Source: a virus (lineage: Duplodnaviria > Heunggongvirae > Uroviricota > Caudoviricetes). Taken from it: a stretch of 47,754 nucleotides of DNA. The position numbers and the translations under genes were made by a program. This document shows positions 19,027 to 46,830 of the stretch, piece after piece. The stretch is taken from the IMG/VR virus record IMGVR_UViG_2778261224_000004; one strand, given 5' to 3'. The notes under the pieces were generated by a model, which saw nothing but the letters and a program-made list of their open reading frames with translations, had not been told where the DNA came from and searched no databases. How positions within the stretch are numbered: the stretch's first letter is position 1; the number at the start of each line of letters is the position of its first letter.

Positions 19027-20883
19027 CTATATGGTTACGCCTTTACTTATAACTCTACGGCGTCTTCTACGTATACCTGACGAGTTCTGCACATACACAT
19101 TACCTCGCATTTCCTGTTCGGCAAGCCAGTTAAAATTAGGGTTCAGAATTTCCATCGCGGCAGTTGCATAGTTACGGCAATCAAGAGGCTCGTTACGCTC
19201 GTAGACTTTCACCCACTTTTCTTTTGTCTGCCCATTTTTATATTCAAATATTTTTTTCTCTGATAATAATCCTTTAAAGTATTCGGTATCATATCCTCTG
19301 TCAGAATCTAATGGGAAATGCATATAACCAGGACCAGGATCATGTAGTTTAATTCTTGCCATGATGGTCCCTTTACCATCATCAACCCCCAAATTAAACA
19401 ACATAGCACCCACACGGTTATTATTACTTGGCTTTCCTATAAATGGTAAACCTACCCCACCACGCCCCCTGATAGAGTATATTCGCCTTGATTCTCTCGG
19501 CTTAGTAAAGCGATATACCTCTGTCGTAAAATGCCCACCAGAGTCAATACAAACGGAAGAAATCTGTAATTTTCGACCGTCACGGAATGACCAGCTACGG
19601 AGTAAGTATTCATCAAGTTGTTTCCAGACAACATCTTGTGCGGGATCACCTGGGAATATTTTATATTCTATCCCCCATGACTCCTTACCTTTTCCCCAAC
19701 CGACCAATTCACAAACTAAATACGTGTCCTGTACGTCAACACCAGCACTTAACAATAAAACATCATCTGGTAAAAACTCTTCAAACCTTATTCTGCGTTG
19801 CAACAAGTATTCAGGATCGATATCGTCTTTAGCATCCTCTTTCCATGGCTCACCCAGCTTAAGGTTAATAAACTCCATTAATCCATTTTTATCGCGGTTT
19901 CTGGTTGCTTCCGTAAATTCTTCAACCAGCTCTGACAATGCAACCCACGGGGAGTAAAGACTGTTAATATGAAAACCAACAATACCTTTAACTCCAGTAT
20001 GTTCAGCTATCCATACCCCCTTCGCCAACCAATCAACGTCTGGTTTACCAGATCCGCGCATAATCCCGCCGCACTCACAGCACTCATATCTGGCCGTTTC
20101 CGGTAACGCCTCACCTGAATCGCTCTTATCCCATCTGACTTGCGACCATTTCATCACCTGCATGGTGCCACAACATGGGCAAGGAACATGGTAGTAACGC
20201 TGATCGGAGAGCTTAAACCACTTGTGGATTTTGCTTGTTTCCTCCAAAACAGGAGTAGAAACAAAAACTTTCTTACGATTATGAAAGTTGGTAGTACGCT
20301 GAATACCTAGTTTTAGTGGGTCGCCCTCCTGCGTCACACCGTAACGATCAATCTCATCAGCTAACAGTATTCGAATTGGCCTGGATGCAAGACCTGCTGG
20401 GGAATTAGCACCAACAAGTGCTATATATCCACCAGCGTAATGCTTCATACGTATAGTCGTGCTGGACTTTTTGGCTGCACCGCGCCCCTCTTTCCCTTCA
20501 TGCAGCTTGTGTTTCAAACCAGGGGAATATTTGAACGTCGGATCAATACGCTCTTTTGAAAAAGCCTCAGCCGCCTCTACCGTTGGATAAATCATCAACT
20601 GAGGAGATGGCTCCTGATCTGCAAAGTAACCCATAACATTTAGCTGTAATTCGGATTTACCAATTTGCGAGCTACATTGCATCACTACTGTTTCTGTATC
20701 AGCGTCACCAATAACATCCATTGGTTCACGCAAATATGGCACTCGGCTTGTACGCCACGGCCCTGGCTCTGGAGACGTTCCCGGCGCTACATGACGATAC
20801 TTATCAGCCCATTCGGAAACAGTTAGCCGTGATTTAGGGCGAAGCGCACGGAAAAAAGCGGTGCTCCATACTGTTTCGCCCAT
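19027..20883 (-). CDS. Terminase large subunit, lambda gpA-like
   Basis: 618-aa ORF; N-terminal ..TVSEWADKY.. and ATPase region resemble the GpA terminase family. Confidence 0.85.
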   Translation of the reverse strand: MGETVWSTAFFRALRPKSRLTVSEWADKYRHVAPGTSPEPGPWRTSRVPYLREPMDVIGDADTETVVMQCSSQIGKSELQLNVMGYFADQEPSPQLMIYPTVEAAEAFSKERIDPTFKYSPGLKHKLHEGKEGRGAAKKSSTTIRMKHYAGGYIALVGANSPAGLASRPIRILLADEIDRYGVTQEGDPLKLGIQRTTNFHNRKKVFVSTPVLEETSKIHKWFKLSDQRYYHVPCPCCGTMQVMKWSQVRWDKSDSGEALPETARYECCECGGIMRGSGKPDVDWLAKGVWIAEHTGVKGIVGFHINSLYSPWVALSELVEEFTEATRNRDKNGLMEFINLKLGEPWKEDAKDDIDPEYLLQRRIRFEEFLPDDVLLLSAGVDVQDTYLVCELVGWGKGKESWGIEYKIFPGDPAQDVVWKQLDEYLLRSWSFRDGRKLQISSVCIDSGGHFTTEVYRFTKPRESRRIYSIRGRGGVGLPFIGKPSNNNRVGAMLFNLGVDDGKGTIMARIKLHDPGPGYMHFPLDSDRGYDTEYFKGLLSEKKIFEYKNGQTKEKWVKVYERNEPLDCRNYATAAMEILNPNFNWLAEQEMRGNVYVQNSSGIRRRRRRVISKGVTI

Positions 20884-20888
20884 GAGGT

Positions 20889-21449
20889 TTATTCTTCCTG
20901 CTTAATAAATCGGGATTCCTGGAGCGCCTGAAGCGCAAAATTAATCTCGTCTTCAATAATGCGCTCGATCTCCCTGGCTGTTTTGCCTTCACAACGGGGA
21001 GCTGCTCTTGGAGCAATACTAAATAAGCGGCTACGCAATTCATTAGCTGCCAGAAATGCATCATCCCTGACCGCATCTTTAGCGATGAGAGAGCCTTCCT
21101 TTTCTTCAAATTCAAGGCGTTTCAGCTTTGCCTGATAAATTTTTTCTGCGGTCTTAGCCTTGTTGAATTGCACCGCAACACCGGAAGTACCACCAGCTAA
21201 TCCGGCATCATCAGCGGGTAACTCTGGTTGTTCCGAAGATATCCCATGCCCTCTTTTTCCATTTTCAGCAGATACCTCACGACCAACCTGTCGGCTCGCT
21301 TCATAAGCCGCACTGGCTTTATCAAAATCCAGCTTGCCGCTTTTCAGCACTGGAATGCGACCGGAACGACAGAGCTTCGTAACCATTGCCGGAGAAATAC
21401 CTTTCCGGCGGGCAAACTCTGACTTACTGACGATGGCCATTACTTGCAA
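20889..21449 (-). CDS. Terminase small subunit (Nu1-like, N-terminal HTH)
   Basis: 186-aa ORF directly upstream of large terminase; N-terminal HTH-like SKSEFARRKGISPAMVTKL. Confidence 0.6.
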   Translation of the reverse strand: MQVMAIVSKSEFARRKGISPAMVTKLCRSGRIPVLKSGKLDFDKASAAYEASRQVGREVSAENGKRGHGISSEQPELPADDAGLAGGTSGVAVQFNKAKTAEKIYQAKLKRLEFEEKEGSLIAKDAVRDDAFLAANELRSRLFSIAPRAAPRCEGKTAREIERIIEDEINFALQALQESRFIKQEE

Positions 21450-22030
21450 CCATTAGCAAGATACTGAACAAATCCCTCATGCGTTTCATGCGCGTCGTGG
21501 TACTGACGATAAACATCCAGCAACAATGCAATTTCCATATCCGTCGCGGGAATACGTTCTTTATCAATAGCCAGGTACTTAATTTGAACAACAGGGGAAG
21601 AATTATCGTCTTCTTCCTGCGGCTGTTCATCGCTTAACATTTCGTCAAGCTCTGCATCATTAAACCCAAGCAGATCAATATCAAAATCATCATCCATTAA
21701 CTCTTTGACTTCTTCGGCCAGAAGCTGCATATCCCAGCCAGCATTTAAGGCCAGCTTGTTATCTGCAATCCTGTAAGCCTTCTTCTGTTTTTCAGAAAGG
21801 TTACTCAACCGAATCGCCGGAACTTTATCCATTTCCAGAATTTCGGCTGCTGCAAGCCGCCCATGCCCCGCAATCAGTTCATTCTTTTCATCGATCAGCA
21901 CAGGATTAGTGAAACCGAACTCACGGATACTGTTCACCAACTGTTCAACTTGCTCATCTGAATGAGTCCGTGAATTTTTGGCATATCTGAGCAACTTACC
22001 GACTGGTAAATATTCGATTTTTAGAGCCAT
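21440..22030 (-). CDS. ParB-like nuclease domain (ParB/Srx fold) protein
   Basis: 196-aa ORF; motif ..YAKNSRTHSDEQVEQLVNSIREFGFTNPVLIDE..LIAGHGRLAAA..; paralog of 24697..25320. Confidence 0.7.
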   Translation of the reverse strand: MALKIEYLPVGKLLRYAKNSRTHSDEQVEQLVNSIREFGFTNPVLIDEKNELIAGHGRLAAAEILEMDKVPAIRLSNLSEKQKKAYRIADNKLALNAGWDMQLLAEEVKELMDDDFDIDLLGFNDAELDEMLSDEQPQEEDDNSSPVVQIKYLAIDKERIPATDMEIALLLDVYRQYHDAHETHEGFVQYLANGCK

Positions 22031-22587
22031 TTTTTAACCGCCATAACACAACAGGTTAAAGAAAACTGTTTAACTTATTGATACTAAAAGAGAAAAATGA
22101 CGATCTTTTTACTCATAAAAAATCACACAAACCAGCATAATTATCTGATTTTATTAAGTTTTTATAAGTAAAAAGGATCTTGCGATGGTGTTTTGGTTAA
22201 AAGATTGGATGTATTTGCATGATTTATAACGATTTTTATCAGAACAACATTACATTGGTTAAAGATCTGCGCGTATCTTGATGATCTAAAAGAAAATTTT
22301 CTACTTTCTTTTTACCAGCACAAATACAGCAAAAAATCACGTTTTCCCGATATTTTTCAATGAGATGAGTAAATTTCTTTTACCGCAACTTTTAACCTAA
22401 CTTTTTTCACGTTTAGCTAGCCGAACATCGGGGTTCGAATGACCCGCATCCAACGCTTTTGGCCAGAAGGACCCAATTCTGCCGGACGATGAAACGATGC
22501 TCGTGCTCCCCCACAGACAGCCAGCGAGCGACGCTACAGAACACAGTGAATACACTCTGCATAACAACACCATCAACCACACGATGA
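22031..22587. other. 557-bp AT-rich non-coding gap inside the late gene block (candidate cos/packaging or regulatory region)
   Basis: No convincing ORF; AT-rich with several GATC sites. Confidence 0.3.
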
Positions 22588-23307
22588 TTAACGAGAGAAG
22601 GTCTTAGAAAGAATGTCATCAATCGCCTTTGTGACTTCATCAGCAAACGCATCCTCACCAGCACGCAGCGCCACGCCATGCCAATCAAGACGCTGCGAAT
22701 AGTTAGGTTGCTGGATAAACGTAAGGATCAACGTAGGACGCCGCCCAACGCGCTGCCAGACGCCTGGTTGAAGCGGGTTACTTGTACCAGGTCGAACAAC
22801 AAAAAACTCCGTAGGCTTGCCCTGACGGCGATTTTGATGCGCATCTCGCTGAACTCTTAGGCCAGATAAGACCTGCTGTAATTGCCCCCGCGAAATATTC
22901 CCGTATTTGTCCAGCTTTGCGCCGGGACCAGGAGCAAGCTGCCAGCCGTTAGGCAAATATCCACCAGCCCTTAGCGCCCCTTCTGAGCGTTTGTACTGTC
23001 GTTGGCCACCTTCGATTTGCGGAGTCAACGTTACAGGGGCTGGCGTTCCTCCCCATTCACGAGCATACACAATGGCTGTAGGATCACTCTTCTTTGCGGC
23101 CAAAACGTAAGTAGAGTTCTGAATCCACGGCGTGGGCCTGTCAAATACCCGATTAATTTCATTCTTAATCGCAGCCTGAGAAGCCTTTGCCGTTCTGGTT
23201 GCCGCAAGCGCCATTGCGAACGGCAATTCGCGTTCTTCAAGGCGCTGGAGTTGTCGTTGAATATCCTGAGAAGAAAAATCCATCTTTATCTCAATTCTGT
23301 CAGCCAC
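22588..23307 (-). CDS. Hypothetical protein
   Basis: 239-aa ORF between ParB-methyltransferase fusion and the AT-rich gap. Confidence 0.45.
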   Translation of the reverse strand: MADRIEIKMDFSSQDIQRQLQRLEERELPFAMALAATRTAKASQAAIKNEINRVFDRPTPWIQNSTYVLAAKKSDPTAIVYAREWGGTPAPVTLTPQIEGGQRQYKRSEGALRAGGYLPNGWQLAPGPGAKLDKYGNISRGQLQQVLSGLRVQRDAHQNRRQGKPTEFFVVRPGTSNPLQPGVWQRVGRRPTLILTFIQQPNYSQRLDWHGVALRAGEDAFADEVTKAIDDILSKTFSR

Positions 23308-23323
23308 CAGCGCCTCCTACACA

Positions 23324-24703
23324 CTACTTAATCAACGGCCGGAAAGCCGCCAGCACATCATCAGATCGTCCGATTGTTGAACCACCAGGCAACGGCAACT
23401 CAAACTCAAAACGAACAGCTTTCTCCAGACTCGCCCAACTAAGGGAATCATCGTTAATAACGTGCAAATACCAGCTCTTACAGTTGAATATTGACCGCTT
23501 AATCCTGAAACCATGTACACGACACAACTGCTTCACTTCATCATCAGAGTGAAACTTCTGGTAAAACCAGTGCCCCTTCCGGTACAACGCGGTAAAACCG
23601 TTATGATCAATAAAATAAAGCCGGCTTTTGGAACTCGCAGCTTGTGTTTGCTTCAGGACTGTTTCCAGCTCTCCACGGCTACGGCCAGAAAAGAATATTG
23701 ACCCACCAGCTTTACACAAGCCTTTCAGAACCGTCAGAACGGACCATTCAGCCTCGACACTATCGACCGAGTTCAAAACGCTATCGCAAATCACGTAGTC
23801 GTAACGCCCTCGCGTTTTTAAGTCGTCCACCAGCGTATCAATCATCCGGTTTGTTGCGGTCCTATCCAGAGTGTTTCCAGCGCCCTTACGGCGGAAAAGC
23901 TCGAGATCATGCAGGTTATATCCCTTTGCCCTGAGCATTCGCGCGTAGTCTCCCTGCCCCGAACCAAAATCAATTCCTCTTGGCGTCTTGGCAACGATCG
24001 GGAGGATCAACGACTCATACAGATTTGATTTCAGGCTGCCACCATTACGCAACCGCATAAGCTGCGCATACGTCTGGATGTATGTTGTTTTCTCCAGATG
24101 AGAATACTCAAATACACCATAAGTTTTATTCAGATAACTTTGGTATTTTTCCTTCTCAACATCAGGGATCACAAACACCGTTAGCGGTGTGCGCGTCATT
24201 TTCGCTGCTAATGCATACTGAGCACAGTGAATAACCTCACCAGACTGAGTAGCAACACAACCACCCCACGGACCATACTTGATAACCAGTTCCGCTATGT
24301 TCTTTCGAACATATGCCATTTTCGCGCGCATATTGCCTGAGATCTGGCTTGCCGATACCTGAACAAAACCATGCTTATCTTCCAGACCGGACACCCTGCA
24401 ACGCTCATCTCCGCTATCAAAATCCGTTCCGTTATGCAGTTGGTTAAACCGTACTTCGTCGTATACCGTCGTTTCACAGGGCAACACATACACCGCAGCA
24501 CGCGTTATTCCCAACTTACGTAGCGCCTTCGTCCTTTGGTGTCCCGCCACCAGCAAATCGCCGCGCACTATCAATGGCTTCACAAGCCCCAGCTCCCTGA
24601 CGCTTTCCGCCAGCCTCGCAAGATCATCCTCACCGATAAAACGCGGGTTATATTCCGCGCCGCGTAGGTGCGTTATGTCGTAATTGAGGTGAAGCATCAG
24701 CAC
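23324..24703 (-). CDS. ParB-like N-terminal domain fused to a class I SAM-dependent methyltransferase domain
   Basis: 459-aa ORF; N-terminal ParB-like ..LVAGHQRTKAL..; C-terminal Rossmann methyltransferase motif I GIDFGSGQGDYA and motif II-like YDYVICDSVL; no DPPY/DPPW or PCQ motif seen. Confidence 0.65.
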   Translation of the reverse strand: MLMLHLNYDITHLRGAEYNPRFIGEDDLARLAESVRELGLVKPLIVRGDLLVAGHQRTKALRKLGITRAAVYVLPCETTVYDEVRFNQLHNGTDFDSGDERCRVSGLEDKHGFVQVSASQISGNMRAKMAYVRKNIAELVIKYGPWGGCVATQSGEVIHCAQYALAAKMTRTPLTVFVIPDVEKEKYQSYLNKTYGVFEYSHLEKTTYIQTYAQLMRLRNGGSLKSNLYESLILPIVAKTPRGIDFGSGQGDYARMLRAKGYNLHDLELFRRKGAGNTLDRTATNRMIDTLVDDLKTRGRYDYVICDSVLNSVDSVEAEWSVLTVLKGLCKAGGSIFFSGRSRGELETVLKQTQAASSKSRLYFIDHNGFTALYRKGHWFYQKFHSDDEVKQLCRVHGFRIKRSIFNCKSWYLHVINDDSLSWASLEKAVRFEFELPLPGGSTIGRSDDVLAAFRPLIK

Positions 24704-25320
24704 ACCTCCCCAGCCAGCAATGCGGATACAAATCCGATATAGCTGCCATTATCATCAACATAACGAGACACCGCGCAGTCAAAACGATCCGCTTCCTCAT
24801 CCGTTGCCGGGATTTTATGACCTCCAAATGACAGGTACTGAACTTTTACGCCTGATTTGGCCTCATCCTTCTCAAATGGGATATCCATACCCTCTGTGTC
24901 ATCGTAGACCGCCGCACTCAATAAGTTATCCAGTTCGCGCTGAGTAAAACCAATTGAGTCCAGAGAAAAATCATCGGCCGCAAGATCTGCAAGCTCCGCG
25001 CTTAACAACTCTTCATCCCAACCAGCATTCAGCGGAATACGGTTGTCGGCCAGACGATATGCCTTCTTCTGATTCTCCGTTAGCCCAGCCAGAACAATGC
25101 AGGGAACATCATCCATCCCCAACTGAGTGGCCGCAGCAATTCGACCATGACCAGCAATTACAACGTTGTTCTCGTCTATCAGGATCGGATTAGTCCATCC
25201 GTACTCCTGTATGCTGGCAACAATCTGATCTACCTGCTCCACGGAGTGTGTGCGAGCGTTCTTTTCATAACCAATCAACACAGAAAGTGGTAAAGAAACC
25301 ACATTAAGTTGTTTTGTCAT
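24697..25320 (-). CDS. ParB-like nuclease domain (ParB/Srx fold) protein
   Basis: 207-aa ORF; ..YEKNARTHSVEQVDQIVASIQEYGWTNPILIDE..VIAGHGRIAAA.. Confidence 0.7.
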   Translation of the reverse strand: MTKQLNVVSLPLSVLIGYEKNARTHSVEQVDQIVASIQEYGWTNPILIDENNVVIAGHGRIAAATQLGMDDVPCIVLAGLTENQKKAYRLADNRIPLNAGWDEELLSAELADLAADDFSLDSIGFTQRELDNLLSAAVYDDTEGMDIPFEKDEAKSGVKVQYLSFGGHKIPATDEEADRFDCAVSRYVDDNGSYIGFVSALLAGEVC

Positions 25321-27369: not shown

Positions 27370-27478
27370 CGGGTTATCTCCGGTTTAACCAGGGCGGGTA
27401 TCGCTCGGTTTCGGGTATAACCATAGGAAATTTTTTCCCATCTGTAAAGCACTTTTTATATAAATCTATAATTATATA
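27367..27478 (-). promoter_or_regulatory. Conserved ~112-bp promoter/leader cassette, copy A
   Basis: More than 95 percent identical to 34245..34355 and 43156..43267; contains AT-rich motif, TTTACA-N17-TATGGT promoter-like hexamers, leader and RBS. Confidence 0.55.
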
Positions 27479-27481
27479 ATT

Positions 27482-28069
27482 CTATGACACTTGCCAGAGA
27501 GCATCATGCAACTGGATACCTCCGTTGCACTGGTTGCCCCAGCCATGCCAGCCATCAGGTAAATCACCGCGAGCAAACAGCTCAATACGAGGAACATCGC
27601 CTAACAGCTTTACCAGCTTGTCACGGACCACATCAGGCTTCCGAGAATGCTCCAGACGAGGCGATGTAAACGACTGAATGATCCCCGCATCAAGACGTGT
27701 CGGTAGTTTGCCTTTCACTGCAAACAAGCAATCTTCACTGTTTGCACGAGTCATATGCCCCATCCCCATCACCAGCTTATCTGGTTGTCGGCTACCACAT
27801 TTGTTCCATGTGAAGCCCTTCATGGTCATCAGCCTGAATCCCCATGCTTTCACCACCAGCAACGCTTCTTCTGGCTGAGTCGGAACCCACCACATGGCCA
27901 ACAAACACGATTCAGGATTAGCAAGCTGCCAGACAGGAATACGAGCAATATCCTCAGCTTTCATCGTTGGATACTTAAAACCAGCGCCACGATTCCCATC
28001 CTTACACTTGTCTTTGTATTCCCAGGGGGGATCTGCATAAATCAGATTAAACAATGCAATTGCCTCCAT
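27482..28069 (-). CDS. MT-A70-family N6-adenine DNA methyltransferase
   Basis: 195-aa ORF with catalytic motif YADPPWEY near the N-terminus. Confidence 0.7.
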   Translation of the reverse strand: MEAIALFNLIYADPPWEYKDKCKDGNRGAGFKYPTMKAEDIARIPVWQLANPESCLLAMWWVPTQPEEALLVVKAWGFRLMTMKGFTWNKCGSRQPDKLVMGMGHMTRANSEDCLFAVKGKLPTRLDAGIIQSFTSPRLEHSRKPDVVRDKLVKLLGDVPRIELFARGDLPDGWHGWGNQCNGGIQLHDALWQVS

Positions 28070-28376: not shown

Positions 28377-28452
28377 TGGTGGCCCCTACCGGATTTGAAC
28401 CGATGACCGTGCGATTATGAGTCGCCTGCTCTAACCACTGAGCTAAGGGGCC
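28377..28452 (-). tRNA. tRNA with CAT anticodon (Met or lysidine-type Ile2), encoded CCA end
   Basis: Hand-folded cloverleaf GGCCCCTTAGCTCAGTGGTTAGAGCAGGCGACTCATAATCGCACGGTCATCGGTTCAAATCCGGTAGGGGCCACCA: 7-bp acceptor stem, D arm, anticodon loop CTCATAA, T loop TTCAAAT. Confidence 0.85.
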
Positions 28453-28545: not shown

Positions 28546-28621
28546 TGGTTGATGCGTGCGCCCATGAGAAAAGCGCATAGAATGTTGTAACTATATATTT
28601 ATATAATTATAGAAATATATA

Positions 28622-28831
28622 TTACTTTGGACAGTTGATTTCCCATGCCATGTTATGAGCCAGAATATCTTTCTTTGTCTGGCGGTCCATAACATCGATG
28701 TCGTGATCAGTCAGGTAGATGGGCTTTACCCAATCACAGGCGGTATCAACCACCACCGGGACGCTTCCACGACTCCCGCAGCTCGCGATCAACATCGTCA
28801 TCAGCCATATGGTTAACACTCTGCTGTACAT
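28622..28831 (-). CDS. Rz1-like outer-membrane lipoprotein (o-spanin candidate)
   Basis: 69-aa ORF with signal peptide and lipobox LIASC, in the +1 frame overlapping the 3' end of the Rz-like gene. Confidence 0.5.
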   Translation of the reverse strand: MYSRVLTIWLMTMLIASCGSRGSVPVVVDTACDWVKPIYLTDHDIDVMDRQTKKDILAHNMAWEINCPK

Positions 28832-32824: not shown

Positions 32825-33123
32825 GCCACAGCCCCTCTCAACGGCTTAACTTTGGCTAATAAGGTGTTAAACAACATGGAGTTAGGATTCATGCCAAATG
32901 GCAATTCCGGTTTAGCGGAGTAGTACAGGCAACCATTTATTTTCCTGGTTGTTATCTGTCCTTCGGCAACCATGCTTCTCAGTCTGCAACGCATAGAGTT
33001 CTGCGACACACCAATGTGCTCCGCGATTACGTCCACTTTTGAACATGGGTGATCGGTCAGGAAATTAATCACATCTTGGGGGTTAATAATTTTGCGTTTC
33101 ATTGTCGAGGCGTCCTTATACAT
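32821..33123 (-). CDS. Hypothetical protein, possible winged-helix DNA-binding regulator
   Basis: 100-aa ORF; own AT-rich motif copy immediately upstream (33125-33150). Confidence 0.4.
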   Translation of the reverse strand: MYKDASTMKRKIINPQDVINFLTDHPCSKVDVIAEHIGVSQNSMRCRLRSMVAEGQITTRKINGCLYYSAKPELPFGMNPNSMLFNTLLAKVKPLRGAVA

Positions 33124-33179
33124 TTATATAAATATATAATTCTATATATGGCGGGAGACGTCCCGCCGTAGGCTTACTG

Positions 33180-34247: not shown

Positions 34248-34355
34248 CAGATTTCTCCGGTTTAACCAGGGCGGGTATCGCTCGGTTTCGGGCATAACCA
34301 TAGGAAATTTTTTCCCACCTGTAAAGCACTTTTTATATAAATCTATAATTATATA
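34245..34355 (-). promoter_or_regulatory. Conserved ~112-bp promoter/leader cassette, copy B (immediately downstream of Q-like gene)
   Basis: Near-identical to copies A and C. Confidence 0.55.
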
Positions 34356-34416
34356 TTTATAGATTTTCGATGTTCCCGATGTCTACACACCATCAAAACA
34401 GCTCAAAATGACACTT

Positions 34417-36941: not shown

Positions 36942-37598
36942 ATGAAAAGCAACGACGAGAACATCAAGAAAGAAATAGGTCTGCGCATTCAGACTCTACG
37001 GAAACAATCCGGCATGACTGCCGGAGATCTCCAGCAAGTCACTGGAATAGGCTTAAGCACCTTGCAGAACTATGAGGCCGGATTAAGACAACCATCTATA
37101 CCTGCCATCAAGAAAATCGCGCACGCCCTGAAAGCATCAGCGCCTTATATCGCGTGCTTAACAGATAACCCGTTCCCACCCCAGAATACTAACGCTCCTG
37201 TTATTCCTGGGCTTGTAGCTATAAAAAATGACATAGCATCGCACGCCGGAGAAAAGCCAGTGCTGGCGATAGAACAGGAGATTCTACGAAGCAAGAACAT
37301 CAACCCATCGTCTCTGTCAGTTCTCCAGAGCAACGATGAGTTAATGTCACCAACAATATCCCCAGGCTCCCAAGTCCTGATTAATACAGACGATACAGAG
37401 ATTCATGAGGGGATCTATGCCCTTGAAGACAGAAATGGCCTGGTTGTTTTGAGGCACTGTAGAGTCATACCGGGTGACAATGCTGTTATGCTGTCAACCG
37501 AAAGGGATGCTGAAATGAACACTAAGCATCTGAATAACGAGGAATTTAAGCGTTATAAAGTTCTTGGCCGCGTAGTTAGTGTTGTCAACTGGTTATGA
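36942..37598 (+). CDS. CI-like repressor (HTH_XRE N-terminus, LexA/S24-like C-terminal domain)
   Basis: 218-aa ORF; ..QTLRKQSGMTAGDLQQVTGIGLSTLQNYEAG.. HTH and S24-like C-terminal domain. Confidence 0.8.
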   Translation: MKSNDENIKKEIGLRIQTLRKQSGMTAGDLQQVTGIGLSTLQNYEAGLRQPSIPAIKKIAHALKASAPYIACLTDNPFPPQNTNAPVIPGLVAIKNDIASHAGEKPVLAIEQEILRSKNINPSSLSVLQSNDELMSPTISPGSQVLINTDDTEIHEGIYALEDRNGLVVLRHCRVIPGDNAVMLSTERDAEMNTKHLNNEEFKRYKVLGRVVSVVNWL

Positions 37599-38069: not shown

Positions 38070-38089
38070 AAGCGGGCTAACGCCCGCTT
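38070..38089 (+). terminator. Hairpin (candidate terminator) after the 124-aa ORF
   Basis: AAGCGGGC-TAAC-GCCCGCTT perfect 8-bp stem; downstream tract AT-rich rather than a clean T run. Confidence 0.45.
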
Positions 38090-38200
38090 ATATGATTATA
38101 GATTTATATAATTATATAAAACGCTTTTCATCAGCCAAAAAGTTGGTTATGCTTACCTCGTTCTATAAATATAGATTTATAGAATTATATAACCAAACAC
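38085..38200 (+). promoter_or_regulatory. Two copies of the AT-rich ATTATAGATTTATAtAA motif upstream of parA (promoter/centromere candidate)
   Basis: Motif at about 38090-38115 and 38165-38190; a third copy lies upstream of parG at 38861-38900. Confidence 0.45.
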
Positions 38201-45852: not shown

Positions 45853-46830
45853 TTAATGTTGGAGTGATTTCCAGGTCTTTCTTAACCTGTTATAACGCTG
45901 CTCAACGAGGGATCGTAAATATGCAAGGTCAGCTCCAGGATACATGCCATCAGCAAATTCCTGGCTAACCTCTCTAGTGATTTGATGACGAAGTTCGGCC
46001 TCTCCCTTTTCCCGAACAAGACGCGCAGCTCTCTCCGCTGCTTTCTGTTTTGCCTTTATCTCTCTGGCCGTCTTCCTCTGATGCCATACATTCTCCATCT
46101 GCTCCTGAATAACAATACGCTTATAATCAGCCTCCGTTATCGCTTTTTTAAGCCGTTCGCTATTCTTCGCATTGAAGTAATTAAGTTTCTGGCTAACCGC
46201 ACGTCTCCATGCTTGTTCAGTAATACCAACGGTTTCCAGCAGTTGATCACGAATCTCTATTTTCGCTGGCCAATACTGTTTATTCACCCGATCCCAGCGA
46301 CGTTCATAATCAATAAAACCTAACGCTTTCAGTTGCGACAATGCCCTTGTACAGCGCGTTATAGACTTGTTCCCAGCTTCGGATACGGTAGACAGGCCGC
46401 AAAAATCAGCCAACGCCTCAGCACTGGCCAGAACCCGCTTAGAAATGATGTTTACATGGTGCAAAATCGCAGCGATCACAGCATTAATCGCCCGACGACG
46501 ATGCTCGTTTATCCGGCGCTTCCGCTCTGACGGTTGATTAACGTAGAACGCAACCTCACACGTAAGATCACGCCCATTAATGCGCTGTAAAGCATCAGAT
46601 AACACCAGCGGCAGCTTGTGCGTATGGTGCTTTGGAGGCTGGAACTCCGGCGACAAATTACAAACGTAAGCTGAACGTAGAGACGGCATTGGTCTATCCA
46701 TATGTTCGCTCTTGCGTCCACGGAAAACCAACGTATAATGGGAGTTGTCGAGGCGCCCATGGTTAGTTGTTGGTTTTCCGTGGATGTCGCAAGAAGCCCG
46801 CAGATTTATCTGCGGGCTTTTTGTTTCCAT
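45853..46830 (-). CDS. repA: Plasmid replication initiator RepA, IncFII (RepFIIA)-like; true start probably internal (Met 46701 or 46692)
   Basis: 325-aa ORF; ..FCGLSTVSEAGNKSITRCTRALSQLKALGFIDYERRWD.. resembles the RepA1 core as recalled; the N-terminal 43 codons overlap the antisense-RNA/leader structures. Confidence 0.6.
   Translation of the reverse strand: METKSPQINLRASCDIHGKPTTNHGRLDNSHYTLVFRGRKSEHMDRPMPSLRSAYVCNLSPEFQPPKHHTHKLPLVLSDALQRINGRDLTCEVAFYVNQPSERKRRINEHRRRAINAVIAAILHHVNIISKRVLASAEALADFCGLSTVSEAGNKSITRCTRALSQLKALGFIDYERRWDRVNKQYWPAKIEIRDQLLETVGITEQAWRRAVSQKLNYFNAKNSERLKKAITEADYKRIVIQEQMENVWHQRKTAREIKAKQKAAERAARLVREKGEAELRHQITREVSQEFADGMYPGADLAYLRSLVEQRYNRLRKTWKSLQH
46746..46826 (+). 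ncRNA. Candidate CopA-like antisense RNA opposite the repA leader
   Basis: Plus-strand TTGCGT-N16-TATAAT (46712-46739) and, about 80 nt downstream, terminator GCCCGCAGA-TTTA-TCTGCGGGC plus TTTTGTTT (46796-46826); perfect 15-bp inverted repeat 46718-46732 / 46768-46782 in the leader. Confidence 0.5.

What the first reader, a model, noticed from the sequence alone, without database searches (positions are those of the whole stretch)
22031..22587. Unusual 557-bp AT-rich non-coding gap inside the otherwise tightly packed late operon
Late genes overlap or abut almost everywhere, yet a 0.56-kb ORF-free, AT-rich stretch with several GATC sites separates the hypothetical 239-aa gene from the ParB-like/terminase genes. 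With a lambda-type terminase, a cos site with its terminase-binding sites is the obvious candidate; a late promoter or replication element are alternatives.
Basis: inference. Interest (0 to 1): 0.35.

Follow-up and report, generated by a model that had tools for sequence, protein, structure and literature searches.

The report
Lambda-type cos site of a phage-plasmid
The 557-bp gene-free gap is the phage's cos site, where its terminase cuts replicated DNA to make 12-base sticky ends and starts filling the head; this is an ordinary, well-understood element, now placed to the base.

Summary
22031-22587 is the largest gene-free gap in the late region, and 22031-22400 is the lowest-GC stretch of the window (28% against 45%).

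- **Virion ends.** Three 99%-identical Yersinia phages and five Vibrio relatives (TerL 63-65% identical) have record ends inside this gap, on either side of one homologous 12-mer. In the window it is 22433-22444, minus strand GGTCATTCGAAC.
- **Physical ends.** One relative carries the 12-mer at both record ends. A metagenomic contig still has Illumina adapter fused to its first base. Phage X29 is published as having defined ends.
- **Match to lambda.** Aligned on the nick, the window has lambda's cosQ heptamer GGGTCCT (22468-22474, its only copy) at the same 23-bp distance. It also has a similar right flank and the same degree of two-fold symmetry.
- **cosB-like array.** The AT-rich part carries GGT(T)AAAAG-type repeats. 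Relatives have them at the same offsets but with a concertedly changed sequence. These are most likely binding sites for the small terminase subunit.

No promoter, terminator, RNA family or coding signal was found. RepA and ParA lie elsewhere. The element is a common ~48-kb E. coli phage-plasmid. Verdict: new member of a known kind, low interest.

The parts
22031..22587 (-). Whole intergenic gap, the cos region (cosQ, cosN and a cosB-like array), read on the minus strand, which is the strand of all flanking genes.
22484..22587 (.). Variable GC-rich spacer after the stop of the 239-aa gene. It is poorly conserved, with indels, and shows no sign of function.
   Evidence: Identity to 19 relatives is 0.19-0.57, against 0.7-0.9 in the flanking genes. 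Indels are visible in the alignment. The RNA fold z-score is -0.5.
22468..22474 (-). cosQ-like heptamer GGGTCCT, the candidate packaging-termination signal.
   Evidence: It is the only copy in the window. It is identical to the heptamer at lambda bp 48473-48479 and lies the same 23 nt from the left nick. It is conserved at that offset in XM1, X29, Rostov 7, L045 and L046, and within 1 nt in BZS1. The function is inferred from lambda (PMC4669245).
22445..22467 (-). 23-bp spacer between cosQ and the left nick, ending in ...ATGCG. It forms the left flank of cosN.
   Evidence: conservation 0.89
22433..22444 (-). cosN cohesive-end sequence, 5'-GGTCATTCGAAC-3' on the minus strand. The inferred nicks fall between 22445 and 22444 on the minus strand and between 22432 and 22433 on the plus strand.
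   Evidence: vB_YpM_39 and 41 start with this 12-mer, and vB_YpM_44 ends with it. The homologous 12-mer bounds the XM1, PVP-XSN, R20L, R19R and X29 records. It begins contig L015 and is fused to adapter in L016. It is invariant in 18 relatives with TerL 87-91% identical. It is unique in the window.
22411..22432 (-). Conserved right flank of cosN, in the position of lambda's I2: CCCGATGTTCGGCTAGCTAAAC.
   Evidence: The CCCG...(T)CTAGCTA pattern is conserved from BZS1 and L016 to the window. Lambda has CGCGGGTTTTCGCTA in the same place. I2 is needed for termination in lambda (PMC4669245).
22377..22410 (-). Three tandem 12-bp-spaced R-like sites in forward orientation: GTGAAAAAAG (22401-22410), GGTTAAAAG (22389-22397) and GGTAAAAG (22377-22384). 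This is the cosN-proximal part of the cosB-like array.
   Evidence: TRF reports period 12 with 2.4 copies. The first strict site lies +35 nt from the nick, against +36 in L036 and +37 in XM1 and X29. Conservation is 0.90.
22308..22316 (-). R-like site GGTAAAAAG, forward, +116 from the nick.
   Evidence: L036 has GGTTAACAAAAG at +118.
22257..22264 (-). R-like site CTTTAACC, reversed, +168 from the nick, abutted by GATC.
   Evidence: L036 has TTGTTAACC at +170.
22195..22203 (-). R-like site CTTTTAACC, reversed, +229 from the nick.
   Evidence: It is positionally homologous to TTTGTTAACC in L036.
22168..22175 (-). Weaker R-like site CTTTTTAC, reversed, abutted by GATC.
   Evidence: Read. It does not match the strict pattern.
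22105..22112 (-). Weaker R-like site GTAAAAAG, forward, overlapping GATC.
   Evidence: GGGTAAAAAG in L022-type relatives
22054..22061 (-). R-like site CTTTAACC, reversed, +371 from the nick.
   Evidence: CTTTTACC in L022, TTGTTAACC in L036
22031..22039 (-). GGTTAAAAA immediately before the ATG of the ParB-like gene. It is a possible last site and overlaps the ribosome-binding region.
22071..22083 (-). The only perfect IHF-consensus match in the gap (TATCAATAAGTTA). Its relevance is uncertain.
   Evidence: It is one of 4 matches in the window against 3.4 expected. It lies about 350 bp from cosN, not between the oppositely oriented sites.
21440..22030 (-). ParB/Srx N-domain protein (196 aa), the first gene after cos. 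Its role is unknown.
   Evidence: Pfam ParB_N 3.8e-08; phrog_620 4.6e-75. The synteny ParB-like, terS, terL is conserved in X29 and XM1.
20889..21440 (-). Small terminase subunit (183 aa from the ATG at 21440), with an N-terminal Xis/Cox-like winged helix-turn-helix. It is the presumed binder of the R-like sites.
   Evidence: phrog_57 1.4e-41 and a Cox-like HTH at residues 3-36; P2 Cox 4LHF at E 0.0057; AF2 N-domain pLDDT 86-89; Xis 4J2N with TM 0.71 normalised to the target.
19027..20883 (-). Large terminase subunit of the lambda gpA family. It supplies the nuclease that nicks cosN and the packaging ATPase.
   Evidence: GpA_ATPase 7e-76 and GpA_nuclease 1e-84

Best explanation
The gap is the cos site of a temperate myovirus that lives as a ~48-kb plasmid, and it is built like lambda's cos.

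**Initiation.** On replicated DNA the small terminase subunit binds the GGT(T)AAAAG-type repeats in the AT-rich part (22031-22410). This region is in the position of cosB, and the binding is through the subunit's N-terminal winged helix-turn-helix. That places the gpA-type large subunit on cosN. Its nuclease makes two nicks 12 bp apart, between 22445 and 22444 on the minus strand and between 22432 and 22433 on the plus strand. The result is 5'-protruding 12-base ends, 5'-GGTCATTCGAAC at the terminase-proximal left end.

**Packaging and termination.** DNA enters the head starting with the ParB-like, terS and terL genes and continues round the genome. It stops at the next cos. There the heptamer GGGTCCT (22468-22474), 23 bp before the nick, acts with cosN and its right flank as the termination signal, like lambda's cosQ.

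**After injection.** The ends anneal and are ligated, which directly recreates the circular plasmid prophage.

**Shown and inferred.**
- Shown: the place of the ends, within the limits of public records, and the sequence homology to lambda's cos core.
- Inferred: the polarity of the overhang, the binding by TerS, and the role of the cosQ-like box.
For: 1. **Lambda-type packaging genes.** TerL has the GpA_ATPase and GpA_nuclease domains, and the portal is of the lambda family.
2. **Ends in near-identical phages.** The Yersinia phages vB_YpM_39, 41 and 44 are 99% identical here with TerL 100% identical. Phages 39 and 41 start GGTCATTCGAAC|CCCG and end ...GCG. Phage 44 starts CCCG and ends ...GCG|GGTCATTCGAAC. 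The two boundaries differ by exactly the 12-mer.
3. **Ends in Vibrio relatives.**
   - XM1 carries its 12-mer GGTGCTCGCGAC at both record ends, plus a trailing A.
   - PVP-XSN and R20L start with it.
   - R19R and X29 break 2 nt and 1 nt from its right edge.
4. **Metagenomic relatives.** Contig L015 starts exactly with its 12-mer. L016 has the Illumina adapter ...GCTCTTCCGATCT fused to the first base of its 12-mer, which marks a physical DNA end.
5. **Register with lambda.** GGGTCCT lies 23 nt before the nick in lambda, the window, XM1, X29, Rostov 7, L045 and L046. The flanks are also alike.CG|GG on the left and C.CG..TTCG.CTA on the right. Ten of 24 positions are two-fold symmetric in both the window and lambda. 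GGGTCCT occurs once in the window.
6. **Experimentally mapped relative.** BZS1 (TerL 37.5% identical) has 12-nt 5' cohesive ends shown by PhageTerm and PCR (PMC7556043). It shows the same boxes within 1 nt.
7. **Conservation.** There is a conserved island at 22364-22483 (0.75-0.90), flanked by a poorly conserved spacer.
8. **Repeat array.**
   - Offsets from the nick are +35, +48, +116, +168 and +229 in the window, and 36, 50, 118, 170 and 245 in L036.
   - The sequence has changed in concert to GGTTAACAA in L036.
   - L036 has 11 GTTAAC cores, and its best 7-mers recur 10 times (P = 0.003).
   - The Vibrio phages have five GTTAACA copies starting at +37 (P < 0.003).
   - L016, which has no ParB-like gene between cos and terS, still has three GGTAAC copies.
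9. **TerS.** It is a small terminase (phrog_57, 1.4e-41) with an N-terminal Cox/Xis-like HTH, and its putative recognition helix differs between the lineages that have different sites.
Against: - No read-level data were available for this exact element. Record boundaries are depositors' choices. The three Yersinia records are labelled circular, and no paper describing their termini was found.
- The 5' polarity rests on the 12-mer being present at both ends after library end-repair. A 12-bp direct terminal repeat with blunt ends is not formally excluded.
- In the window alone the repeat is not significantly enriched over shuffles of the same AT-rich sequence (P about 0.3). Its support comes from relatives.
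- The pattern used (7 matches against 0.48 expected) was chosen after seeing the data.
- TerS shows no BLASTP similarity to lambda Nu1. The hhalign match has only 6% probability, and no Foldseek match reaches E 0.001.
- The dinucleotide 5' of the second nick is GG, not the CG conserved in lambda-like phages.
- No good IHF site lies between the oppositely oriented repeats.
Confidence: 0.9

Rival explanations
1. The gap also, or mainly, holds a late promoter or regulatory region for the ParB-like, terS and terL operon. On this reading the AT-rich repeats are binding sites for a transcription activator rather than for terminase.
For: - AT-rich DNA lies directly upstream of the first gene after the gap, and GGTTAAAAA overlaps its ribosome-binding region.
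- In the Vibrio relatives a terminator-like hairpin with a T-run and a TATAAT box lie between the last gene and cosQ. This was read by eye and suggests that a new transcript starts near cos there.
- An activator-dependent promoter would escape the consensus scan.
Against: - No sigma-70-like promoter or terminator was found on either strand at 21900-22750, against 1.7 and 0.6 expected.
- The phage's own recurrent intergenic signal, tandem TTATATAA, is absent from the gap.
- This reading does not explain the virion ends or the cosQ/cosN homology, so at most it is an extra function.
Confidence: 0.2
2. The repeat array is a centromere-like or loading site for the ParB/Srx-domain proteins encoded on both sides of it. 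It would serve plasmid partition or replication of the phage-plasmid rather than packaging.
For: - The element is a plasmid in 71 of 72 E. coli genomes that carry it.
- Three ParB_N-domain proteins flank the gap.
- The array consists of short repeats in both orientations.
Against: - A separate RepA initiator and a ParA family protein lie elsewhere on the plasmid.
- The ParB-like proteins match only the N-terminal ParB/Srx domain in Pfam.
- Relative L016 has the repeat array but no ParB-like gene between cos and terS.
- The first repeat keeps a fixed distance of 35-37 nt from the nick across lineages, which ties the array to cosN.
Confidence: 0.05
3. It is a pac site for headful packaging, or a non-functional variable spacer. 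The record ends would then be arbitrary linearisation points.
For: The three Yersinia records are labelled circular. Depositors often open a genome just upstream of the terminase genes.
Against: - Eight virion-derived records and two metagenomic contigs, from several depositors, break within 2 nt of the same two homologous positions.
- One of them has adapter fused to the end.
- X29 has published defined ends.
- gpA-family terminases are cos enzymes.
- The core is as conserved as the flanking genes.
Confidence: 0.02

Closest known systems
Bacteriophage lambda cos (cosQ, cosN, I2, cosB), with terminase gpNu1/gpA
   Same: - The large terminase subunit belongs to the gpA family.
- The cohesive-end segment is 12 bp.
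- The heptamer GGGTCCT is identical and lies the same 23 bp before the nick.
- The left flank is CG|GG, and the right flank resembles C.CG..TTCG.CTA.
- Ten of 24 positions are two-fold symmetric in both.
- The repeated sites lie on the terminase-gene side in mixed orientation.
- cos sits in the late region between the lysis and accessory genes and the terminase genes.
   Different: - Only 3 of 12 bases of the cohesive end match lambda's GGGCGGCGACCT.
- The second nick is flanked by GG, not CG.
- The cosB-like part is about 400 bp with 6-9 sites, against 120 bp with three R sites in lambda.
- No convincing IHF site lies between the oppositely oriented sites.
- A ParB-like gene lies between cosB and terS.
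- TerS is not detectably similar to Nu1 by BLASTP.
- The virus is a myovirus with a P2-type tail and a plasmid prophage.
cos region of the Vibrio myophages X29, phi 2, vB_VpaM_XM1, PVP-XSN, R19R, R20L and Rostov 7
   Same: The locus is homologous. The gene order is ParB-like, terS, terL, with TerL 63-65% identical. GGGTCCT, the 23-nt spacer, a 12-mer and CCCG..TTCGTCTAGCTA are all present. The first repeat lies 37 nt from the nick. X29 has published defined ends.
   Different: The 12-mer is GGTGCTCGCGAC, sharing 6 of 12 bases with the window's. The array is only about 140 bp, with five direct GTTAACA(C/G) copies. The C-terminal part of the ParB-like protein is unrelated (15% identity). These phages are annotated with an integrase (XM1 ORF45, X29), and I did not look for plasmid genes in them. 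None of the three papers on this group that I checked describes the cos site.
Serratia phage vB_SspM_BZS1 cos
   Same: The terminase is of the gpA family (37.5% identical). Its 12-nt 5' cohesive ends were shown by PhageTerm and PCR (PMC7556043). It has the same GGGTCCT box and the same TCTAGCTA box.
   Different: The spacer to the annotated nick is 24 nt, 1 nt longer. The 12-mer is GCATTGCGCGCC. terS starts 75 bp from the end, with no ParB-like gene in between.
Phage-plasmid N15 cos
   Same: It is also a phage-plasmid with a lambda-type cos and a gpA terminase (TerL 27.5% identical to the window's). It has 12-base 5' ends and a conserved cosQ (PMC4669245).
   Different: Its prophage is a linear plasmid (from my own knowledge). 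Its cosB is of the simple type described in PMC4669245. Its cohesive ends are almost lambda's, differing at 2 of 12 positions.

Membership tests
lambda-type cos site | An adjacent terminase whose large subunit is of the gpA family (ATPase plus cos-nicking nuclease). | tested here: met
   GpA_ATPase 7.1e-76 and GpA_nuclease 1.1e-84 in the 618-aa protein at 19027-20883.
lambda-type cos site | Virion DNA has unique, non-permuted ends that map to the site. | tested here: met
   The test is indirect. Record ends of three 99%-identical Yersinia phages and five Vibrio relatives, one contig start and one adapter-fused contig end all fall at the homologous 12-mer. X29 has published defined ends. No raw reads for this element were available.
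lambda-type cos site | Staggered nicks 12 bp apart that give 5'-protruding cohesive ends. | tested here: inconclusive
   The 12-bp distance comes from the two alternative boundaries and from the 12-mer at both ends of XM1. The 5' polarity is inferred from fill-in by end-repair. It is directly shown only for BZS1 and lambda. A blunt 12-bp terminal repeat is not excluded.
lambda-type cos site | A cosQ heptamer upstream of cosN. | tested here: met
   GGGTCCT at 22468-22474, 23 nt from the nick as in lambda, and unique in the window. Sequence and position were tested. Function was not.
lambda-type cos site | Partial two-fold rotational symmetry of cosN, with conserved CG next to both nicks. | tested here: inconclusive
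   The symmetry is 10 of 24 positions, equal to lambda. The left nick is flanked by CG. The second nick is flanked by GG instead of CG.
lambda-type cos site | cosB: repeated TerS-binding R sites between cosN and the terminase genes. | tested here: inconclusive
   A repeat array is present, positionally conserved and concertedly changed in relatives. It is not significant in the window alone, and binding was not tested.
lambda-type cos site | An IHF site between oppositely oriented R sites (the complex cosB type). | tested here: not met
   There is one perfect consensus match, at 22071-22083, far from the orientation switch at 22264-22308. Lambda-like phages with a simple cosB, such as N15, also lack this feature, so it does not define the family as a whole.
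lambda-type cos site | A small subunit with an N-terminal winged helix-turn-helix, as in gpNu1. | tested here: inconclusive
   phrog_57 small terminase at 1.4e-41, with a Cox-like HTH at residues 3-36. P2 Cox 4LHF at E 0.0057. hhalign places residues 4-32 on Nu1 residues 3-30, but with only 6% probability. The AF2 N-domain has pLDDT 86-89, and Xis 4J2N gives TM 0.71 at a non-significant E-value. BLASTP against Nu1 is negative.
plasmid replication origin or parS centromere | Iterons next to the initiator gene, or a parS site next to a parA-parB operon. | tested here: not met
   RepA and ParA are annotated elsewhere on the homologous ATCC 25922 plasmid. I place them at about 45853-46830 and 36942-37598 in the window by matching ORF size and gene order. 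The flanking ParB-like proteins match only the ParB_N domain.
headful pac site | Permuted, terminally redundant virion DNA. | tested here: not met
   Records from independent depositors end at one site, and X29 has defined ends.

The most novel reading that the evidence does not exclude
The unusually long, roughly 400-bp array in the enterobacterial lineage may be more than a TerS platform. It could be shared with the ParB/Srx-domain proteins that bracket cos, three paralogues of which one is fused to a methyltransferase. It could also be gated by adenine methylation, because three of the four GATC sites directly abut repeat copies. Either would add a new accessory layer to lambda-type packaging, such as a ParB-like clamp or nuclease working with terminase, or Dam-controlled cos use as at P1 pac. 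Such a layer might link packaging to the plasmid state of the prophage.
Probability: 0.1. Interest if true: 0.6.

Novelty: new member of a known kind. Interest (0 to 1): 0.25.

Why it matters
- **Annotation.** It gives base-level coordinates of the packaging site for a very common E. coli phage-plasmid. The element is in 72 of 5,426 complete genomes, including the reference strain ATCC 25922, and its ParB-like protein is indexed in more than 11,000 blocks of the public assembly collection. This helps to annotate such plasmids correctly and to orient their genomes.
- **Transduction.** It helps to predict cos-dependent transduction, or hijacking by satellites that carry a matching cos.
- **Reach of the lambda cos core.** GGGTCCT, 23 bp, a 12-bp overhang and the CTAGCTA box are conserved far beyond lambdoid phages. 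They appear in Vibrio myophages and in phages on contigs binned with Rikenellaceae and other gut bacteria. That pattern can serve as a search pattern for cos sites of gpA-type terminases.
- **No new mechanism.** Nothing here changes what is known about how cos sites work.

Tried and rejected
- **Promoters and terminators.** The consensus scan of 21900-22750 found none.
- **RNA.** Rfam at E up to 1 gave no match. The RNA fold of 22440-22600 has a z-score of -0.5.
- **IHF.** There is one perfect consensus match, at chance frequency and poorly placed.
- **GATC.** Four sites are not significantly enriched.
- **Repeats in the window alone.** Unbiased k-mer enrichment is not significant (P about 0.3). 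The generic repeat finder returned mostly low-complexity AT-rich pairs.
- **TerS against lambda Nu1.**
  - BLASTP found no similarity.
  - NCBIfam gave no hit.
  - The PDB search with the single sequence found nothing.
  - Foldseek on the single-sequence AF2 model gave no hit at E 0.001 or better, only Xis/BldC-type N-domain matches by TM-score.
- **Literature.**
  - No paper was found that describes the termini of vB_YpM_39, 41 or 44.
  - The XM1 paper does not analyse termini.
  - Neither 12-mer appears in any relevant paper.
  - No paper was found on a ParB-like protein acting with a terminase.
- **Family guess.** I guessed the pSLy3 phage-plasmid group and dropped it, because pSLy3 belongs to the SSU5 supergroup. 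One preprint that cites pSLy3 could not be opened.
- **Iterons near repA.** None was clearly found with the settings used, so the true origin was not located.
- **Contigs ending at cos.** The look-up for this exact element returns the longest contigs first, and none ended at cos.
Full report
**1. The observation**

All genes around the finding lie on the minus strand. The 239-aa gene ends at 22588 and the ParB-like gene starts at 22030. Between them are 557 bp with only short ORFs.

- None of ten independent public annotations of the same locus calls a gene there. The PGAP annotation of the E. coli ATCC 25922 plasmid calls none either.
- It is the largest gap in the late gene chain. The next largest are 234, 200 and 154 bp, and most genes overlap or abut.
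- The composition falls into two parts. 22031-22400 is 28.4% GC, the lowest-GC 370-bp stretch of the window (mean 44.6%). 22401-22587 is 52% GC.
- There are four GATC sites. Seven percent of equal-sized windows have as many.

**2. What the element is**

The flanking genes are a packaging module. TerL has the GpA_ATPase and GpA_nuclease domains, and the portal is of the lambda family. The 183-aa protein is a small terminase (phrog_57, 1.4e-41).

The window as a whole is a phage-plasmid.

- The gap with its flanks is found in 72 of 5,426 complete E. coli genomes. In 71 of them it lies on a 47-52 kb plasmid, including that of ATCC 25922.
- That plasmid carries RepA, ParA, a toxin-antitoxin pair, lysis genes, a lambda-type head and a P2-type tail.
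- Free phages of the same family exist. Yersinia phages vB_YpM_39, 41 and 44 are 99% identical across the gap, with TerL 100% identical.

**3. Virion ends fall inside the gap**

Records vB_YpM_39 and 41 begin GGTCATTCGAAC|CCCGATG and end ...GGATGCG. Record 44 begins CCCGATG and ends ...GGATGCG|GGTCATTCGAAC. The two boundaries differ by exactly 12 nt, which is window 22433-22444 read on the minus strand.

The closest other phages are Vibrio myophages with TerL 63-65% identical and the same gene order, ParB-like then terS then terL. Their linear records break at the homologous place:

| Record | Where it breaks |
|---|---|
| XM1 | GGTGCTCGCGAC at both ends, plus a trailing A |
| PVP-XSN, R20L | start with the 12-mer and end just before it |
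| R19R | 2 nt from the right edge of the 12-mer |
| X29 | 1 nt from the right edge of the 12-mer |
| Rostov 7 | permuted record that runs through the site |

More distant relatives from metagenomes (TerL 50-61% identical) show the same thing.

- Contig L015 starts exactly with its 12-mer.
- L016 still has the Illumina adapter ...GCTCTTCCGATCT fused to the first base of its 12-mer, which marks a physical DNA end.
- L045 and L046 carry the same architecture internally.

The 12-mer is found at a left end (L016, XM1), at a right end (vB_YpM_44, XM1), and at both ends of one record (XM1). The simplest reading is 5' overhangs filled in during library preparation. A 3' overhang would have been trimmed away. 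This step is inference.

**4. Homology with lambda's cos**

I fetched lambda's ends and set them in register on the known nick:

| Phage | Left flank | 12-mer | Right flank |
|---|---|---|---|
| lambda | ..TTTACGGGTCCTTTCCGGTGATCCGACAGGTTACG | GGGCGGCGACCT | CGCGGGTTTTCGCTA.. |
| window | ..GAATTGGGTCCTTCTGGCCAAAAGCGTTGGATGCG | GGTCATTCGAAC | CCCGATGTTCGGCTAGCTA.. |

- The heptamer GGGTCCT sits 23 nt before the nick in both. It does so too in XM1, X29, Rostov 7, L045 and L046.
- In lambda this heptamer falls at bp 48473-48479, by arithmetic. From my own knowledge that is cosQ. Feiss et al. describe cosQ as a highly conserved 7-bp site needed, together with cosN and I2, for termination (PMC4669245).
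- GGGTCCT occurs only once in the window, and the composite pattern is unique.
- Two-fold symmetry around the 12-mer is 10 of 24 positions in both the window and lambda.
- Serratia phage BZS1 has 12-nt 5' cohesive ends shown by PhageTerm and PCR (PMC7556043). It has the same boxes, with the spacer 1 nt longer.
- There are differences from lambda. Only 3 of the 12 overhang bases match. The second nick is flanked by GG rather than the CG that is conserved in lambda-like phages.

**5. Conservation**

I compared the window with 19 distinct relatives from IMG/VR, most of them with TerL 77-91% identical. Identity to the window is 0.19-0.57 just after the stop codon (22484-22587). It rises to 0.75-0.90 over 22364-22483 and is 0.46-0.81 through the rest of the AT-rich part. 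The core GGGTCC...CTAGCT is present in all relatives with TerL 87-91% identical, and the 12-mer is invariant among them.

**6. The AT-rich part**

Read from the nick towards the terminase genes, it carries these sites:

| Orientation | Sequence | Offset from the right nick |
|---|---|---|
| forward | GGTTAAAAG | +35 |
| forward | GGTAAAAG | +48 |
| forward | GGTAAAAAG | +116 |
| reversed | CTTTAACC | +168 |
| reversed | CTTTTAACC | +229 |
| reversed | CTTTAACC | +371 |

- There are also weaker copies, and a 12-bp tandem arrangement next to cosN.
- In the window alone this is not significant against shuffles of the same AT-rich sequence (P about 0.3).
- Five of the twelve GGTTAAA in the window lie in this region.
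- The weight comes from relatives. L036 (TerL 77% identical) has 11 GTTAAC cores at offsets 36, 50, 118, 170, 245 and onwards, and all read GGTTAACAA (best 7-mers recur 10 times, P = 0.003).
- The Vibrio phages have five direct GTTAACA(C/G) copies starting at +37 (P < 0.003).
- The same positions with a concertedly changed sequence is what sites that co-evolve with one DNA-binding protein look like.
- L016 has no ParB-like gene between cos and terS, yet it has three GGTAAC copies in the same place. That points to TerS rather than the ParB-like protein as the binder.
- TerS has an N-terminal Cox/Xis-like helix-turn-helix. Its putative recognition helix differs between lineages with different sites: SPAMVTKL in the window, SRPAVTKL in L036, and SHVWVSKL in XM1.
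- Similarity to lambda Nu1 itself is not demonstrable.

**7. Alternatives**

- No sigma-70-like promoter or terminator was found.
- No Rfam family matched, and there is no unusual RNA structure.
- RepA and ParA are elsewhere.
- A promoter that depends on an activator could share the gap.
- A role for the ParB-like proteins at the array cannot be excluded.

**8. Mechanism, comparison and verdict**

The gap is a lambda-type cos.

- TerS is expected to bind the array.
- The gpA-type TerL nicks 12 bp apart at 22445/22444 (minus strand) and 22432/22433 (plus strand).
- Packaging runs towards the terminase and structural genes.
- It ends at the next cos with the help of the cosQ-like box.
- After injection the annealed ends recreate the plasmid.

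None of the papers I could find or search describes this cos. In kind, however, it is a well-known element. I rate it a new member of a known kind with low interest.

Noticed in passing
whole window; tested with 21900-22750: The window is essentially a whole ~48-kb phage-plasmid. The tested stretch occurs in 72 of 5,426 complete E. coli genomes, in 71 of them on a 47-52 kb plasmid, including the reference strain ATCC 25922. The homologous plasmid carries RepA, ParA and a RelE/ParE toxin-antitoxin pair beside a lambda-type head and a P2-type tail. The ParB-like protein is indexed in 11,341 blocks of the public assembly collection.
   Followed up: partly
24697-25320, 23324-24703, 21440-22030: Three ParB/Srx N-domain paralogues bracket the cos site, and one is fused to a methyltransferase domain. 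The order ParB-like, terS, terL directly after cos is conserved in Vibrio phages X29 and XM1. It is absent in more distant relatives (L015, L016, L045, L046). No published role in packaging was found.
   Followed up: partly
27456-27487, 28591-28622, 33116-33147, 34333-34364, 38088-38119, 38177-38192, 38885-38900, 43245-43268: The palindromic octamer TTATATAA occurs in tandem arrays of 2-4 copies at eight places in the early half of the element. There are 19 matches against 0.5 expected, and none in the cos gap. These are probably operator or promoter arrays of an unidentified regulator.
   Followed up: no
22102-22112, 22168-22179, 22257-22267: Three of the four GATC sites in the gap directly abut or overlap repeat copies: GTAAAAAGATC, GATCCTTTTTAC and GATCTTTAACC. 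The homologous ATCC 25922 plasmid encodes an MT-A70 methyltransferase, and the window encodes a ParB-methyltransferase fusion. Methylation control of terminase binding, as at P1 pac, is possible but untested.
   Followed up: no
L016 1-13 (CAAGIL010000179.1) and the right end of PP580404.1 (L013): Two public records carry library artefacts at their cos ends. A contig binned as Rikenellaceae retains Illumina adapter sequence fused to the phage DNA end. The XM1 record ends with an extra A after the 12-mer, probably an A-tail. The three Yersinia phage records are labelled circular although they are opened at cos.
   Followed up: partly
28377-28452: There is one tRNA gene with anticodon CAT on the minus strand. 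ARAGORN calls it tRNA-Met. PGAP annotates a tRNA-Ile in the matching place of the ATCC 25922 plasmid.
   Followed up: no
L045, L046, L015, L016 (relatives from metagenomes): The pattern GGGTCCT, 23 nt, GGT-N8-(A/G)C, CCC(G/A)...CTAG is kept in phages with TerL only 50-61% identical. Some of these lie on contigs binned with Rikenellaceae and Candidatus Spyradenecus. The pattern could serve to find cos sites of gpA-type terminases.
   Followed up: partly
ON470610.1 (vB_EcoM-473R2) record start, equal to window 22030: This partial 20.6-kb phage record begins exactly at the ATG of the ParB-like gene, at the edge of the AT-rich stretch. That looks like an assembly break in the low-GC region rather than a biological end.
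   Followed up: no
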